Assembly: GCF_964213995.1 (NCBI RefSeq) | Contig: NC_135808.1 | Location: 23,312,001-23,376,000 of the forward strand | Direction of reading: 5' to 3' | DNA length: 64,000 bases | Source: Mustelus asterias | Taxonomy: Eukaryota | Shown here: positions 25,701 through 49,776 of the stretch, in pieces | How the letters are laid out: every line of letters begins with the position of its first letter | Numbering within the stretch: position 1 is the stretch's first letter | Notes under the pieces: generated by a model | The model's input: only the letters and a program-made list of their open reading frames with translations | Database searches by the model: none | What the model was told of the DNA's origin: nothing | Position numbers and translations under genes: made by a program

Positions 25701-28642
25701 CTCACTCCCCTCTCACTCACCGACTCTCACTCCCCCCTCACTCACCGACTCTCACTCCCCCCTCACTCACCGACTCTCACTCACTAACTCTCACTCCCCC
25801 CTCACTCACCGACTCTCACTCCCCCCTCACTCACCGACTCTCACCGACTCTCACTCCCCCCTCACTCACCGACTCTCACTCCCCCCTCACTCCCCGACCC
25901 TCACTACCCCCCTCACTCACCGACTCTCAATTCTCTCTGTCCGTACTCCAGGTATTTTCTCAGCCACTCGATACACTCCACCTCCAGGTAATGTTTCAAT
26001 CGCTGAATGTGTCCAGTCTGCCGGTCGCACCTGTTTTTGATGCTCTCCCCCCAGGGCACTGGGGTCACCCACACCATGTGCTCATTGTCCAAACTGAGAA
26101 CATCATGTCCGTCCCACCCATACTGGCTGAATCCACTCGTGGTCCCATCATCCCGCAGGTCACAGCCAGTCATCATCTGGCAGACATGGACCCCTGTGGA
26201 TCAGAAACACAAACAGCCAATCAGAGACAGTCCCAATGGGCGATCCCACCTGTACAGCCAATCAGAACGTGTCTCACTGGGCGATCTCATCCCACCAGCC
26301 AATCAACATCAACTACAGGATTTATGATCATCTAGAGAAGTTTAGTATGATCAAAAGTAGTCAGCACGGCTTTGTCAAGGGCAGGTCGTGCCTTACGAGC
26401 CTGGTTGAGTTCTTTGAAAATGTGACCAAACACATTGACGAAGGAAGAGCGGTGGATGTGGTCTATATGGACTTCAGCAAGGCGTTCGATAAGGTCCCCC
26501 ATGCAAGACTTCTTGAGAAAGTGAGAGGGCATGGGATCCAAGGGGCTGTTGCCTTGTGGATCCAGAACTGGCTTGCCTGCAGAAGGCAGAGGAGTGGCTG
26601 TGGAGGGGTCTTTCTCTGCATGGAGGTCAGTGACCAGTGGAGTGCCCCAGGGATCTGTTCTGGGACCCTTGCTGTTTGTCATTTTCATAAATGACCTGGA
26701 TGAGGAAGTGGAGGGATGGGTTGGTAAGTTTGCTGACGACACCAAGGTAGGTGGTGTTGTGGATAGTTTGGAGAGATGTCAGAAGTTGCAGCGAGACATA
26801 GATAGAATGCAAGACTGGGCGGAGAAGTGGCAGATGGACTTCAACCCGGATAAGTGTGTGGTGATCCATTTTGGCAGATCCAATGGGATGAAGCAGCAGT
26901 ATAATATGAAGGGTACCATTCTTAGCAGTGTAGAGGATCAGAAGGACCTTGGGGTCCGGGTCCATAGGACTCTTAAATCGGCCTCGCAGGTGGAGGATGC
27001 GGTCAAGAAGGCGTACGGCGTACTGGCCTTCATTAATCGAGGGATTGAGTTTAGGAGTCGGGAGATAATGCTGCAGCTTTATAGGACCCTGGTTAGACCC
27101 CACTTGGAGTACTGCGCGCAGTTCTGGTCACCTCATTACAGGAAAGATGTTGAAGCCATTGAAAGGGTGCAGAGGAGATTTACAAGGATGTTGCCTGGAT
27201 TGGGGGGCATGCCTTATGAGGATAGGTTGAGGGAGCTTGGTCTCTTCTCCCTGGAGAGACGAAGGATGAGAGGTGACCTGATAGAGGTTTACAAGATGTT
27301 GAGAGGTCTGGATAGGGTAGACTCTCAGAGGCTATTTCCAAGGGCTGAAATGGTTGCTACGAGAGGACACAGGTTTAAGGTGCTGGGGGGTTGGTACAGA
27401 GGAGATGTCAGGGGTAAGTTTTTCACTCAGAGGGTGGTGGGTGAGTGGAATCGGCTGACGTCGGTGGTGGTGGAGGCAAACTCGTTGGGGTCTTTTAAGA
27501 GACTTCTGGATGAGTACATGGGATTTAATGGGATTGAGGGCTATAGATGTGCCTAGAGGTGGGGATGTGATCGGCGCAACTTGTGGGCCGAAGGGCCTGT
27601 TTGTGCTGTGGCTTTCTATGTTCTATGTTCTACACCCCCCCCCCCCCTCCCCCCCACTCCGCTCACACACAGCCAATCAGAGCCAGCTCCCTGGACACAA
27701 TCCCTCCACATATTCACAGCCAATCACATTTCCTGTCACATCTCCAATCGTAGCCAATCAACCTCTGGCTCCCAGTCCCTAATCCACTCTGGGTTTCTCC
27801 TCATTCCCACCTGGATCCCCGGGTGCTGGGAGAGTGAGCACTCACCTCCTGTCTGGTTGGTGTGGGACATGTAGAGCGGAATATCAGCTTTCAAATACAT
27901 CTCCTGCTCCTCTGTGAAGATCTTCTTCCGCTCCCAGGCTGCCGGACCCTCGCTCTCCACCATCCACTGCTCCCGGGGGATCAGCTCCCTCCGATCGCTG
28001 TCGTACATCACAAACTGGACACCGTCCACATAAACAACAGCCACAAACTCCGGGAAATCCGGGATCAAAGTCATTCCCGTGAAGAAATACCGCAGAGAGT
28101 GAGAGCCTGAAATACAGAGAGAGAGAATTCAGGATAGACACCCTAAAAACACCAACACTCTCACACACACACACACACACACACAGAGATCAGGGCATGA
28201 ACCCCAAAACACTGATTCCAAACCGAGAGCAAGGCCTCCACCCAGCCTGGCATTGCCCCTCTCACACCCCATCACTCACTGACCAGGGTTAATGCCCCAG
28301 TACCCAGCCTGGCATTGCCCCTCTCACACCCCATCAGTCAATGACCCAGGGTTAATGCCCCAGTACCCAGCCTGGCATTGCCCCTCTCACACCCCATCAC
28401 TCACTGACCCAGGGTTAATGCCCCAGTACCCAGCCTGGCATTGCCCCTCTCACACCCCATCACTCACTGACCCAGTGTTAATGCCCCAGTACCCAGCCTG
28501 GCATTGCTCCTCTCACACCCCATCACTCACTGACCCAGGGTTAATACCCCAGTACCCAGCCTGGCATTGCCCCTCTCACACCCCATCACTCACCTGCAGA
28601 CACCTCTCCACACAGAAGGACCAGCTCTATCAGTCCAATCAT
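16741..28642 (-). CDS. MHC class I heavy chain (gene A), intact, probably non-classical; join(28594-28642, 27846-28106, 25921-26193, 25223-25486, 17420-17524, 16978-17010, 16741-16787), 343 aa
   Basis: Seven exons with GT/AG boundaries, all phase 1, totalling 1032 nt with no internal stop. Class I motifs: GSHSLRYF, NQT glycosylation site, alpha2 C..C, Ig C1 FYP/C..C, TM and Tyr-containing tail. Confidence 0.95.
16978..17010 (-). CDS. Gene A exon 6, cytoplasmic GRGKNDYNPTN
   Basis: ttttacag| acceptor, |gtaagc donor, 33 nt, Tyr at the usual class I tail position. Confidence 0.85.
17420..17524 (-). CDS. Gene A exon 5, connecting peptide and transmembrane
   Basis: taacag|AA CCA ... EPKSRSQVALTVGIVVGVLVLIALIIVAVVIYNKK G|gtagg; 105 nt. 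Confidence 0.92.
18725..20155 (+). mobile_element. Non-LTR retrotransposon RT fragment (CR1/L2 group, different subfamily)
   Basis: KAMGPDNI, NYRPISLLS, FADDCT in disrupted frames. Confidence 0.85.
20383..20892 (+). mobile_element. CR1 LINE 3' end
   Basis: LERVQRRFTRML...FFTQRVV; TTCTATG tail. Confidence 0.9.
21164..24117 (+). mobile_element. Penelope-like retroelement, near full length (RT plus GIY-YIG endonuclease), one frameshift near 22630
   Basis: ORFs 21127-22776 and 22665-23810: IKPADKGG, LPKIHK, DVSALYTSI, GTAMG, YIDD, VVYLIRC...WYIGET; flanked by 9-bp direct repeat TATCCTCTA (21155-21163, 24118-24126). Confidence 0.95.
24019..24055 (+). ncRNA. Minimal type I hammerhead ribozyme in the Penelope 3' repeat
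   Basis: CCAT-CTGACGA-A-GGAGC-TCT-GCTCC-GAAA-GC-TT-ATGG: full core, stem II, palindromic short stem III, stem I CCAU/AUGG. Confidence 0.85.
24120..25020. repeat. Degenerate ~37-40-bp minisatellite in gene A intron 4
   Basis: Repeated CTGTAATATCCCAGGATACACTGGGCCCTGTC; first units at ~21050-21163 before the Penelope insertion. Confidence 0.85.
25223..25486 (-). CDS. Gene A exon 4, alpha3 Ig C1 domain
   Basis: LSCAVTGFYPQAIEVNLWRDG...LPNPDSTYQ...YSCRVEHSG; ctcag| acceptor, |gtaag donor; 264 nt. Confidence 0.96.
25550..25930 (-). repeat. 25-bp minisatellite in gene A intron 3 (shorter copy 46110-46228 in gene B)
   Basis: Unit CTCACTCACCGACTCTCACTCCCCC, about 15 copies, overlapping the exon 3 end. 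Confidence 0.95.
25921..26193 (-). CDS. Gene A exon 3, alpha2 domain
   Basis: ccacag|GG GTC CAT ... GCDLRDDG...YGWDG...YLEVECIEWLRKYLEYG...RV G|gtgagt; 273 nt. Confidence 0.96.
26313..27631 (+). mobile_element. CR1 LINE, 5'-truncated, in intron 2 of gene A
   Basis: QHGFVKGRSCLT, GVPQGSVLGP, FADDTK, (TTCTATG)n tail; same subfamily as 4018-5778. Confidence 0.94.
27846..28106 (-). CDS. Gene A exon 2, alpha1 domain
   Basis: tttcag|GC TCT CAC ... GSHSLRYFFTGMTLIPDFPEFVAVVYVDG...HTNQTG G|gtgag; 261 nt. Confidence 0.96.
28241..28593 (-). repeat. 63-bp minisatellite in gene A intron 1 (~5.6 copies)
   Basis: Unit CCCAGCCTGGCATTGCCCCTCTCACACCCCATCACTCACTGACCCAGGGTTAATGCCCCAGTA. Confidence 0.95.
28594..28642 (-). 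CDS. Gene A exon 1, leader MIGLIELVLLCGEVSA
   Basis: ATG at 28642, 49 nt, ends GCAG|gtgagt; identical exon in gene B. Confidence 0.88.
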
Positions 28643-28752: not shown

Positions 28753-28820
28753 CTGATTGGACACAAAATAGGATTGAACCAATCAGGATAAAGAGATTCA
28801 GTGAGTCATCAGTTTCCAGC
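28753..28820 (-). promoter_or_regulatory. Gene A proximal X1-X2-Y module plus downstream CCAAT box
   Basis: Minus strand GCTGGAAACTGATG-ACTCA-15 nt-CTGATTGG (Y 28779-28786), then CCAATCAG 28753-28760; architecture of MHC promoters. Confidence 0.75.
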
Positions 28821-28868
28821 AGAATAGACACAAACAGGATGAGGAACTTCCTCAATGTTGAGAATTGT

Positions 28869-29201
28869 CCAATCAGCTAAATAAAGTTGGTTGTCTCACG
28901 GTGGCACAGTGGTTAGCACTGCTGCCTCACAGTGCCAGGGACCCGGGTTCAATTCCAGCCTTGGGTCACTCTCTGGGTGCCCCAGTTTCCTCCCACACTC
29001 CCAAAATGGGTGGGTTAGGTGAATAGGCCATACCAAATTGCCCTTTAGTGTCCAAGATGTGTGCATCAGGGGATTAGCCATGGTAAATACGTAGAGCTAC
29101 AGTGGTAGGGCCAGGGTGAAGGTGCTTTGTGTTAAAGTTGGTGCTGACTCCATGGGCTGAATGGGCTCCTTCTATGATGCTGACTTCATCAGCGATCCGA
29201 G
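28869..29201 (-). promoter_or_regulatory. Gene A distal X-Y module interrupted by a SINE
   Basis: Y box 28869-28876 and X2-like TGAAGTCA 29181-29188 are separated by a ~290-bp SINE absent from the gene B paralog. Confidence 0.65.
28888..29177 (+). mobile_element. HE1-like SINE in the gene A promoter
   Basis: A/B boxes GTGGCACAGTGGTTAGC, GGTTCAATTCC; absent from gene B promoter. Confidence 0.85.
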
Positions 29202-45400: not shown

Positions 45401-46596
45401 AAACCCATCAGACCCCCAAACACAAGCTAAACCCATCAGACCCCCAAACACCAGCTAAACCCATCAGGCCCCCAAACACCAGCTAAACCCATCAGCGCTC
45501 CAAACACCAGCTAAAGTCATCAGACCCCCAAACACCAGCAAAACCGATCAGACCCCCAAACACTAGCGAAACCCATCAGACCCCCAAACAGCAGCAAAAC
45601 CCATCAGGCCCGCAAACACCAGCTAAACCCATCAGCGTTCCAAACACCAGCTAAACCCATCAGTCCCCCAAACACCAGCTAAACCCATCAGACCCCCAAA
45701 CACCAGCAAAACCCATCAGACCCCCAAACACCAGCTAAACCCATCAGAGCCCCAAACACCAGCTAAACCCATCAGACCCCCAAACACCAGCTAAACCCTA
45801 AACACCAGCTAAACCCATCAGAGCCCCAAACACCAGCTAAACCGCGAAGATCCACTCTGTCCCCCAAACATTCAGCGAAAGATCAGAACCATCACAAAAC
45901 ACGATTGATGTTAAATCCTGTGGGAATGACAGACCCCAATGGCCAAATTCAGGGAAAACTCTGGGAATTCTGTCTTCCTTAAGGAAATTGAGCCCTCCCC
46001 CCCGCACCCTCTCCCCTCCCCCCCAGCACCCTCCCCCCCGCACCCTCCCACCTCACCCCCACCCCCCGCACCCTCCCCCCCTCACCCTCCCCCCCAGCAC
46101 CCTCTCCCCCTCACTCACCGACTCTCACATCCCCCCTCATTCACCGACTCTCACTCCCCCCTCACTCACCGACTCTCACTCCCCCCTCACTCACTGACTC
46201 TCACTCCCCCCTCGCTCACCGACTCTCAGTAATTTTTGTCCGTACTCCAGATATTTCCTCAGCCACTCGATACACTCCACCTCCAGGTAACGTTTCCATC
46301 GCTGGTTAATGACCGTGCTGCCCTCCCACTTTTGTTTGATGATCTCTCCCCAAGGGACGGGGGTCACCCACACCAGAAGATCCTTATCAAAACTGATGAA
46401 ATCTAGTCCGTCCCACCCGTACTGGTTGAATCCAGTCGTATTCCCATCATCACTCAGGTCACAGCCGGTCATCAGCTGGTGTATGTGGATCCCGGTGGAT
46501 TAGAAAGATAACCTGCCAATCAGGGCCAGTCCCAATAAAAGCCGCACTCACCATGAACCCATCCAAACAGATCCGTTCCCACTGGAGGTCCAGCCA

Positions 46597-48463: not shown

Positions 48464-48784
48464 TCACCTCCTGACTGGTTGGTTGGTTCGATACATGAGG
48501 GTCTGAATATTATCTTTGAGACATCGTGCCCCCTCCTGTGTGAGCTTCTTCTTCTGTTCCCAGGACTCAAGCCCCTCACTCTCCACCATCCACTGCTCCC
48601 GGGGGATCAGCTCCCTCCGATCGCTGTCGTACACAACAAACGGGACACCGTCCACATAACCGACAGCCACAAACTCCGGGAAACCTGGAATTGGAGTCAT
48701 TCCCGTGAGGAAACACCGGAGAGAGTGAGACCCTGAAATATAGAGAGAGAGAATTCAGGATAGACACCCGAAAAACACCAACAC

Positions 48785-48899: not shown

Positions 48900-49201
48900 A
48901 TGCCCCTGTACCCAGCCTGGCATTGCCCCTCTCACACCCCATCACTCACTGACCCAAGGTTAATGCCCCAGTGCCCAGCCTGGCACTGCCCCTCTCACAC
49001 CCCATCACTCACTGACCCAGGGTTAATGCCCCAGTACCCAGCCTGGCATTGCCCCTCTCACACCCCATCACTCACTGACCCAGGGTTAATGCCCCAGTAC
49101 CCAGCCTGGCATTGCCCCTCTCACACCCCATCACTCACTGACCCAGGGTTAATGCCCCAGTACCCAGCCTGGCATTGCCCCTCTCACACCCCATCACTCA
49201 C
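48900..49201 (-). repeat. 63-bp minisatellite in gene B intron 1 (~4.7 copies)
   Basis: Same unit as 28241-28593. Confidence 0.95.
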
Positions 49202-49360
49202 CTGCAGACACCTCTCCACACAGAAGGACCAGCTCTATCAGTCCAATCATTGCTGCTTCCCTCATGTTGAGAGAAACATTTGGAGGAAACTCTTTTTCAA
49301 AGAAAGGCCATTTTCTCAACTCACTCCTTCTGTCTTTTCCTGTTGACACTGAGCCTCAAT

Positions 49361-49518
49361 CTGATTGGACCCGAAATAGGACTGGACCAATCAGAATAAA
49401 GAGATTCAGTGAGTCATCAGTCTCCGGCAGAATAGACACAAACAGGTTGAGAAACTGCCTCAATGTTGAGAACTGTCCAATCAGATAAATACAGCTGCTG
49501 ACATCATCAGTTGCCGGG
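49361..49518 (-). promoter_or_regulatory. Gene B promoter, two tandem X1-X2-Y modules plus CCAAT
   Basis: Distal CCCGGCAACTGATG-ATGTCA-14 nt-CTGATTGG (49477-49518); proximal GCCGGAGACTGATG-ACTCA-15 nt-CTGATTGG (49387-49428); CCAATCAG 49361-49368. Confidence 0.78.
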
Positions 49519-49776
49519 TAGAATCAGCTGAAAGGAGTTTGATCCAGTGACAGAGGGAAGGACATTAAGAACAGGAGCAGGTCTGAGCGAACCATTCAGT
49601 GAGATCACTGCTGATCTGGACCCCAGTTTCTGACTATAAACCATATCCTCAGATATCATTACCCAATAAAAATCTGTCACTCTGAGATTGAAAAGCTCCA
49701 ATTGTTAACTTTTTATTGTGGAGAGACTGGATGTGGATTCCACACTGCTGAATTATTTTAACATTATAAACAGATC

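What the first reader, a model, noticed from the sequence alone, without database searches (positions are those of the whole stretch)
49361..49518. Tandemly doubled X1-X2-Y enhanceosome module with HLA-like spacing in a shark class I promoter
Seen: two modules ~90 bp apart, CCCGGCAACTGATG-ATGTCA-N14-CTGATTGG and GCCGGAGACTGATG-ACTCA-N15-CTGATTGG, then a forward CCAATCAG. Established: the HLA-DRA module is CCTAGCAACAGATG-CGTCA-N15-CTGATTGG and binds RFX, CREB/AP-1 and NF-Y for CIITA/NLRC5. The 25-nt distance from the X1 half-site to Y is the same in both shark modules. The distal X2 is CRE-like and the proximal is AP-1 (TGACTCA). Inference: a double enhanceosome promoter, unlike the single proximal module of mammalian MHC genes.
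Basis: partly seen in the sequence, partly recalled or inferred. Interest (0 to 1): 0.72.

Follow-up and report, generated by a model that had tools for sequence, protein, structure and literature searches.

The report
Doubled switch on shark MHC genes
Shark MHC class I genes, including the classical antigen-presenting gene, carry two tandem copies of the promoter switch that mammalian class I genes have once; the doubling is likely ancient and the second copy likely an optional booster, but the flagged copy sits in front of a broken gene.

Summary
The two X1-X2-Y modules are real, on the minus strand, 90 bp apart. A scan built only from mouse H2-K/H2-Eb motifs finds just these two and one paralogue in 64 kb (0.15 expected). 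The better comparator is class I, not HLA-DRA: the proximal module has an H2-K-like S box, X box and spacing. The flagged gene is a broken member of the nonclassical UBA cluster (frameshift, lost splice acceptor, no alpha3 exon). The doubling is not local: the classical UAA-type promoters 18-20 Mb away have both modules, the distal one with an S box identical to mouse H2-K, and distal matches distal across lineages, so the duplication predates the UAA/UBA split. Class II alpha promoters are single. In the UBA cluster the pair is dispensable: 4 of 32 open-frame genes keep it adjacent, 27 keep the proximal X-Y. Best reading: an old tandem S-X-Y duplication with the proximal module as the working promoter and the distal one as an accessory, kept in UAA and decaying in UBA. 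No binding, start-site or expression data. Not found in the searched literature or in earlier scan notes by sequence; earlier notes had already called the cluster UBA.

The parts
49534..49541 (-). Distal S-box position, decayed (CAAACTCC; 4/8 to the H2-K S box), 15 nt before distal X1
   Evidence: the same position in UAA-type promoters is CTAACCTG, 8/8 to H2-K
49505..49518 (-). Distal X1 box (predicted RFX site; canonical GGCAAC half-site, closer to mouse class II H2-Eb)
   Evidence: (X 20-mer 14/20 to H2-Eb, 12/20 to H2-K)
49499..49506 (-). Distal X2 box, CRE-like TGATGTCA
49477..49484 (-). Distal Y box (inverted CCAAT, predicted NF-Y site)
   Evidence: identical in UAA-type promoters
49443..49450 (-). 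Proximal S box, class I type (TCAACCTG; 6/8 to H2-K), 14 nt before proximal X1
49415..49428 (-). Proximal X1 box (class I type, closer to mouse H2-K/H2-D)
   Evidence: (X 20-mer 15/20 to H2-K, 11/20 to H2-Eb)
49410..49416 (-). Proximal X2 box, AP-1-like TGACTCA
49387..49394 (-). Proximal Y box
49361..49368 (-). Forward CCAAT box; forms an inverted repeat with the proximal Y box around an 18-nt spacer
   Evidence: also in UAA-type promoters
49202..49265 (-). Exon 1 (leader peptide) of a UBA-type class I gene
48468..48732 (-). Exon 2 (alpha1), 265 nt instead of 261: a 4-nt duplication shifts the frame; a repeat copy follows the donor
46220..46492 (-). Exon 3 (alpha2) with a mutated acceptor (CCG for CAG); no alpha3 exon follows in the window
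28753..29201 (-). Paralogous promoter of an open-frame neighbour gene: proximal module kept, distal X split from distal Y by an insertion of about 300 nt

Best explanation
The stretch is a tandem duplicate of the MHC class I S-X-Y promoter module that is shared by shark UBA and classical UAA-type genes and so likely arose before they split; the proximal copy is likely the working RFX/CREB-AP1/NF-Y platform for NLRC5 and the distal copy likely an optional booster that is kept in UAA and decaying in the UBA cluster, and the flagged copy lies in front of a broken gene. Shown: the sequence layout, the orthology of distal with distal and proximal with proximal, the repeated break-up of the pair in UBA, the broken gene. 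Inferred from mouse work: RFX on X1, CREB/ATF or AP-1 on X2, NF-Y on Y and the CCAAT box, NLRC5 recruited through the class I-type S box. Inferred here: an ancestral ISRE-S-X-Y-CCAAT promoter duplicated its S-X-Y core once, leaving the ISRE-like element before the distal copy and the CCAAT box after the proximal one; two platforms would raise or stabilise output of the classical gene, which low or tissue-restricted nonclassical genes would not need.
For: Class I type of the proximal module: X 15/20 to H2-K, S 6/8, X1-to-ATTGG 37 nt as in H2-K. Doubling outside the cluster: two UAA-type promoters (41.60 and 43.33 Mb; modules 105 and 103 bp apart), a gene at 27.98 Mb and one at 21.61 Mb. The 41.60-Mb gene is 86% identical to a Triakis scyllium class I antigen, has the classical anchor residues and lies among proteasome-subunit exons. 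Over 43 nt, UBA-distal/UAA-distal identity is 0.72 and proximal/proximal 0.79-0.81, against 0.56-0.60 between the two modules of one gene. The UAA distal S box equals the H2-K S box (8/8) with the same 15-nt gap. Three other organisms hold both UAA modules in one contig (3 of 4 runs); in one the distal X is 18/20 identical to the flagged UBA distal X, while fourfold sites between the lineages are only 50-70% identical (binomial p about 0.01 at 0.64). Invariant positions across three lineages: 15 of 23 in distal motifs, 7 of 24 in spacer and flank (p 0.02). Dispensable in UBA: 13 of 55 promoters keep both modules adjacent, 9 of those 13 genes are broken; of 32 open-frame genes 4 keep the adjacent pair, 7 an intact distal X-Y at any distance, 27 an intact proximal X-Y. 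Both class II alpha promoters have one module. An RFXAP-family match is in the genome; NLRC5 and CIITA orthologues are reported in whale shark (PMC8455134).
Against: No binding, reporter, start-site or expression data. The footprint on the distal module is modest: against this genome's own UAA copy it is 18/23 without the ATTGG anchor (p 0.11 at 0.64; 0.27 at 0.70), the 18/20 figure is the best of the versions seen, and the distal half is not significantly better conserved than the 5' leader region in that organism (8/110 vs 17/140, p 0.29). The proximal module is also damaged in UBA: deleted in 10 of 55, cut off from its S box by insertions in 7, Y mutated in 3, and 3 checked genes with neither module intact have open frames. 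The 55 copies are segmental duplicates of about ten subfamilies, so counts are not independent. The UAA region looks imperfectly assembled: a 2-nt frameshift in the 41.60-Mb alpha1 exon, an exon 1 with no alpha1 within 60 kb at 43.33 Mb. A UAA-2-type gene at 35.07 Mb shows no module in 800 nt.
Confidence: 0.55

Rival explanations
1. The distal module is a functionless relic everywhere, still recognisable only because shark DNA changes slowly.
For: Fourfold sites of UBA and UAA are still 50-70% identical and the start of intron 1 still aligns; distal motif identity without the anchor is not significant against this genome's UAA (p 0.11); the distal X-Y is broken or absent in 37 of 55 UBA promoters and its S box has decayed.
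Against: X-to-Y spacing is exactly 37 nt in the distal modules of UBA, UAA and the 21.61-Mb gene, while the distance between modules varies from about 81 to 105 bp and the sequence between them does not align above shuffles; the UAA distal S box is 8/8 to H2-K with the 15-nt gap; motifs are more invariant than spacer and flank (p 0.02).
Confidence: 0.2
2. Division of labour: the distal module, with a class II-like X box, would recruit CIITA (interferon-gamma, antigen-presenting cells) and the proximal one NLRC5, giving one class I gene two transactivator inputs.
For: In every doubled promoter with both X boxes readable, the distal X is closer to H2-Eb (13-15/20 vs 10-12 for H2-K) and the proximal X closer to H2-K (13-16 vs 11-13).
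Against: In mouse hybrids the X boxes were interchangeable for NLRC5 and the S box set specificity (PMC4374748); the UAA distal S box is of the H2-K type (8/8), not the H2-Eb type (5/8).
Confidence: 0.15
3. An obligatory double enhanceosome that these class I genes need in order to be expressed.
For: Both modules keep full X and Y boxes and equal spacing in the flagged promoter and in both UAA-type promoters.
Against: 28 of 32 open-frame UBA genes lack the adjacent pair; 9 of the 10 promoters with the flagged 90-bp layout belong to broken genes; module distance is not fixed.
Confidence: 0.1

Closest known systems
Mouse H2-K/H2-D class I SXY module bound by the NLRC5 enhanceosome (PMC4374748)
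   Same: Order S-X1-X2-Y, S box ending AACCTG, 14-15-nt S-X gap, 37 nt from X1 to ATTGG, X 20-mer 15-16/20 identical for the proximal module; an ISRE-like AGTTTC element precedes the distal S box in the UAA-type promoters as it does in H2-K.
   Different: One module is described in mouse; the shark promoters have two, 82-105 bp apart. Binding is shown in mouse, untested in shark.
   Same: The distal X shares 14-15/20 with H2-Eb, the Y box is CTGATTGG, and extra copies of the module exist in mammals too.
   Different: Mammalian extras are described as distal enhancers in the class II region, not a tandem pair in a class I proximal promoter; the shark S boxes are not of the H2-Eb type; shark class II alpha promoters are single.
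Salmonid UBA class I promoter (PMC1971071)
   Same: ISRE, W/S box, site alpha/X2 and enhancer B are reported, so the module was already known in fish.
   Different: No doubling is mentioned in the passages read.
Elasmobranch UBA nonclassical class I cluster (PMC10751288, PMC12562908)
   Same: The flagged gene groups with the nurse shark protein labelled UBA in the supplement in a multicopy cluster.
   Different: The word promoter does not occur in the main text of PMC10751288; this copy is broken.

Membership tests
MHC class I SXY module (NLRC5 type) | X1-X2 box resembling known MHC X boxes | tested here: met
   Proximal 15/20 to H2-K; distal 14/20 to H2-Eb
MHC class I SXY module (NLRC5 type) | Y box at the constrained distance from X | tested here: met
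   37 nt from X1 start to ATTGG in both modules, as in H2-K; 36 in H2-Eb
MHC class I SXY module (NLRC5 type) | Class I-type S box about 15 nt before X: proximal module | tested here: met
   TCAACCTG, 6/8 to H2-K, gap 14
MHC class I SXY module (NLRC5 type) | Class I-type S box about 15 nt before X: distal module of the flagged promoter | tested here: not met
   CAAACTCC, 4/8; met 8/8 in the orthologous distal module of the UAA-type promoters
MHC class I SXY module (NLRC5 type) | Lies upstream of the transcription start of a class I gene | tested here: inconclusive
   Proximal Y is about 120 nt before the first ATG of a class I exon 1; no start site could be mapped
MHC class I SXY module (NLRC5 type) | Bound by RFX, CREB/ATF, NF-Y; transactivated by NLRC5 or CIITA | not testable with these tools
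   Only the presence of factors was checked: RFXAP-family match; NLRC5 and CIITA in whale shark
Elasmobranch UBA class Ib genes | Groups with nurse shark UBA, outside UAA | tested here: met
   Tree of 46 alpha2-alpha3 rows, clade support 89/88; label in supplement
Elasmobranch UBA class Ib genes | Multicopy cluster apart from the class Ia region | tested here: met
   53 exon-1 copies at 21.72-24.67 Mb; proteasome-subunit exons at 41.3-41.7 Mb
Functional class I gene | Open frame through leader, alpha1, alpha2, alpha3 | tested here: not met
   Alpha1 +4 nt, alpha2 acceptor CCG, no alpha3 exon in the window
Classical UAA class Ia (for the 41.60-Mb comparison gene) | Close to Triakis class I antigens, classical anchor residues, linked to proteasome genes | tested here: met
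   86%, 80%, 79% identity to three Triakis scyllium proteins; residues; linkage. That these Triakis entries are UAA alleles is recalled; alpha1 has a 2-nt frameshift in this assembly

The most novel reading that the evidence does not exclude
The ancestral elasmobranch class I promoter is a two-platform enhanceosome, ISRE-[S-X-Y]x2-CCAAT, with both platforms active in the classical gene and possibly tuned to different transactivators (class II-like distal X, class I-like proximal X); nonclassical UBA genes diversify their expression by breaking one or the other platform with insertions and deletions.
Probability: 0.25. Interest if true: 0.7.

Novelty: new variant of a known kind. Interest (0 to 1): 0.45.

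Why it matters
It extends the NLRC5-type S-X-Y code, including the S box and its spacing, to the oldest jawed-vertebrate group with MHC, and shows a tandem layout not found in the papers searched. The UBA cluster is a ready series of natural mutants (distal deleted, X split from Y, S split from X, proximal deleted) with which RNA data could test what each box contributes. The flagged copy itself matters little: its gene is broken; the UAA-type promoter is the one to study.

Tried and rejected
Chance match: rejected. Recent local duplication of one promoter: rejected, the two modules are only 0.56 alike and each has an older orthologue in UAA. HLA-DRA/class II as best comparator: rejected for the proximal module. 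A tree of the 77-nt modules was too weakly supported to use; identities were used instead. First pattern search had a spacer one base short and found nothing relevant. Class II beta family search rang nowhere, so class II beta promoters were not examined; B2M, TAP, PSMB and CD74 promoters were not examined. Promoters of the distant class Ib lineages at 31-33.6, 40.1 and 3.66 Mb were only scanned over 10 kb upstream of alpha1 without locating exon 1 with confidence: no conclusion. Sequencing-run search with the UAA-type promoter: no RNA holder listed, so no start site or expression. Laying other organisms' contigs on the flagged promoter mixed many paralogues and tables were cut: used only to see that contigs spanning both modules (in 3 of 4 runs) and the same break points occur there. 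The coded organisms could not be placed on a tree, so their distance is known only as sequence identity. Two J Immunol papers on shark class Ib lineages (Almeida 2020, 2021) could not be read; any promoter analysis in them or in older subscription papers is unseen.

Full report
Observation. The quoted motifs are exact and lie on the minus strand, 90 bp apart, about 120-270 nt before the first ATG of a class I leader exon. The downstream exon's best solved-structure match is an MHC class I protein, 6LUP. To test chance without using the shark sequence, X-box 20-mers were read from the H2-K and H2-Eb reporter primers of PMC4374748 and required to have ATTGG 36-38 nt away: 3 hits in the window at 12/20 or better, all at 14-15/20 and all in class I promoters, against 0.78 (12/20) and 0.15 (13/20) per 64 kb in 40 Markov controls. 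A tight pattern matches 52 times in the 3.7-Gb genome, 51 in this cluster (36 proximal-type, 15 distal-type), reversed control 1.

What the gene is. The window lies in a cluster of 53 exon-1 copies over about 3 Mb. The nearest named proteins are labelled Mustelus asterias (98-100%). In a tree of 46 alpha2-alpha3 rows the flagged exon groups with horn, nurse, bamboo, white, basking and cat shark proteins (support 89/88, moderate), including the nurse shark protein whose sequence is labelled UBA in the supplement of PMC10751288. The flagged gene is broken: alpha1 is 265 nt instead of 261, the alpha2 acceptor reads CCG, and the only alpha3 exon in the window belongs to the neighbour. Two near-identical copies share these lesions, so a sequencing error is unlikely.

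Which module type. The proximal module has TCAACCTG 14 nt before X1 (H2-K: CTAACCTG, 15 nt), an X 15/20 like H2-K, and H2-K's 37-nt X-to-Y distance. The distal module has an X closer to class II H2-Eb (14/20) and a decayed S position (4/8). In mouse the S box decides NLRC5 response and X boxes are interchangeable (PMC4374748), so the flagged distal module would be predicted to be a poor NLRC5 platform.

Age of the doubling. Other class I genes on the same chromosome were found with a UAA-like alpha1 query. The gene at 41.60 Mb, among proteasome-subunit exons and 79-86% identical to three Triakis scyllium class I antigens, has two modules 105 bp apart; a second such promoter at 43.33 Mb has them 103 bp apart; genes at 27.98 and 21.61 Mb have decayed pairs. 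Distal resembles distal (0.72) and proximal proximal (0.79-0.81) across UBA and UAA more than the two modules of one gene resemble each other (0.56-0.60), so the duplication came before the lineages split; the supplement lists a ray UBA, which would put it before the shark-ray split (some 250-300 million years, recalled). The UAA distal S box is identical to H2-K's with the same gap, and an ISRE-like AGTTTC element precedes it. Both class II alpha promoters have one X-Y module in 500 nt; one UAA-2-type gene has none in 800 nt and a gene at 43.40 Mb has one, with a repeat inserted just before X.

Is the distal module under selection? Fourfold sites between UBA and UAA are 50-70% identical (6 comparisons, 21-49 sites each), so old neutral DNA is still partly alike. 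Distal motifs are 23/28 identical, 18/23 without the ATTGG anchor (p 0.11 at 0.64), the proximal 20/23 (p 0.014). Three of four other organisms laid on the 43.33-Mb promoter hold both modules in one contig (14 substitution rows and 11 indel rows were not shown). In one, the distal X is 18/20 identical to the flagged UBA distal X (p about 0.01, best case), the two-module region has 10 listed changes in 207 nt against 17 in the next 140 nt (p 0.015), but the distal half alone is not significant (p 0.29). Three-lineage invariance is 15/23 in motifs against 7/24 in spacer and flank (p 0.02). Spacing inside the module is fixed while the distance between modules is not. Together: moderate, not decisive, evidence of past or present function.

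Natural mutants in the cluster. Of 55 promoters (53 with exon 1, 2 without): 10 have the flagged layout, 3 a similar 82-bp pair with a changed distal X1, 7 an insertion between proximal S and X, 8 an insertion between or in distal X and Y, 12 a deletion of distal S-X, 5 no distal module, and 10 a deleted proximal X-Y plus a split distal module. Nine of the 10 with the flagged layout are broken genes. Of 32 genes with open leader-to-alpha3 frames (7 of the last class were not fully checked and are left out), 4 keep an adjacent pair, 7 an intact distal X-Y anywhere, 27 an intact proximal X-Y. Copies fall into about ten subfamilies, so these are a handful of events, some seen in other organisms' contigs too. 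The pair is therefore dispensable for keeping a UBA gene intact, and even the proximal module is lost in some.

Mechanism. Most likely an ISRE-S-X-Y-CCAAT promoter duplicated its core once; RFX, CREB/ATF or AP-1 and NF-Y would assemble on each copy and recruit NLRC5 through the S box (established in mouse, inferred here); the proximal copy beside the CCAAT box would carry most activity and the distal copy add to it in the classical gene. An RFXAP-family match is present and whale shark has NLRC5 and CIITA. Nothing here shows binding or transcription.

Literature. Seen as passages: PMC4374748 (abstract, results and methods passages, primers), PMC10751288 (passages and supplement passages), PMC12562908, PMC1971071, PMC7281430, PMC1351924, PMC8455134 (one passage), PMC4243378. 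Searches for shark class I promoters or doubled modules (listings only) returned no such description; the library lacks most subscription papers and figures are not held. Earlier scan notes had nothing by sequence and, by place, UBA assignments and extra SXY copies near class II genes.

Verdict. Observation confirmed, interpretation partly supported. A new variant of a known element: real, old and apparently undescribed, but accessory in the flagged family and attached here to a broken gene. Interest 0.45.

Noticed in passing
L114:200-280 (+) and G000:C8 about 43,373,600 (-): Two near-identical single S-X1-X2-Y modules with a class I-type S box, not beside any exon 1 found; the first follows a CTCF-like motif (recalled consensus). 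Possible distal enhancers or promoters of unlocated genes.
   Followed up: partly
window 49369-49386; L050 and L074 promoters: The 18-nt spacer between the inverted CCAAT boxes is flipped in orientation in L050 and L074, and one arm is lost in L039, L044, L055: a micro-inversion at the inverted repeat.
   Followed up: partly
L032, L034, L041, L046, L056, L074, L083, L092: Related short repeats have inserted, apparently more than once, at nearly the same spot between proximal S and X, also in a gene outside the cluster.
   Followed up: partly
L091, L090, L126 (G000:C8 41.59-43.39 Mb): Class Ia region looks misassembled or rearranged: 2-nt frameshift in one alpha1, an exon 1 with no alpha1 in 60 kb, an alpha1-3 block with no exon 1 found in 80 kb, each near a 200-N gap; the 42.40-Mb gene has a very different alpha1 on a UAA-type alpha2-alpha3.
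   Followed up: partly
P0002; window 46220-46492 and 27846-28106: An annotated isoform joins the alpha2 exon of the truncated gene type to alpha1 of the next gene; ray proteins with repeated alpha1-alpha2 units also appear. Read-through or annotation artefact, not tested.
   Followed up: no
L084 (G000:C8 35.06 Mb): Class I gene resembling nurse shark UAA-2, near class II alpha genes, with no recognisable S-X-Y module in 800 nt upstream.
   Followed up: no
window 49477 vs 49387; L125, L126: Module distance is about 10 helical turns in UAA-type promoters (103-105 bp) but 8.6 in the flagged UBA layout (90 bp), which could put the two platforms out of phase in UBA.
   Followed up: no
L063/L039, L068/L044, L078/L055: Single-module genes sit head to head, about 3 kb apart, with the 82-bp double-module genes.
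   Followed up: no
window 48900-49200 and 28240-28593: Intron 1 starts with a 63-nt tandem repeat whose unit begins with the exon 1 splice-donor sequence.
   Followed up: no
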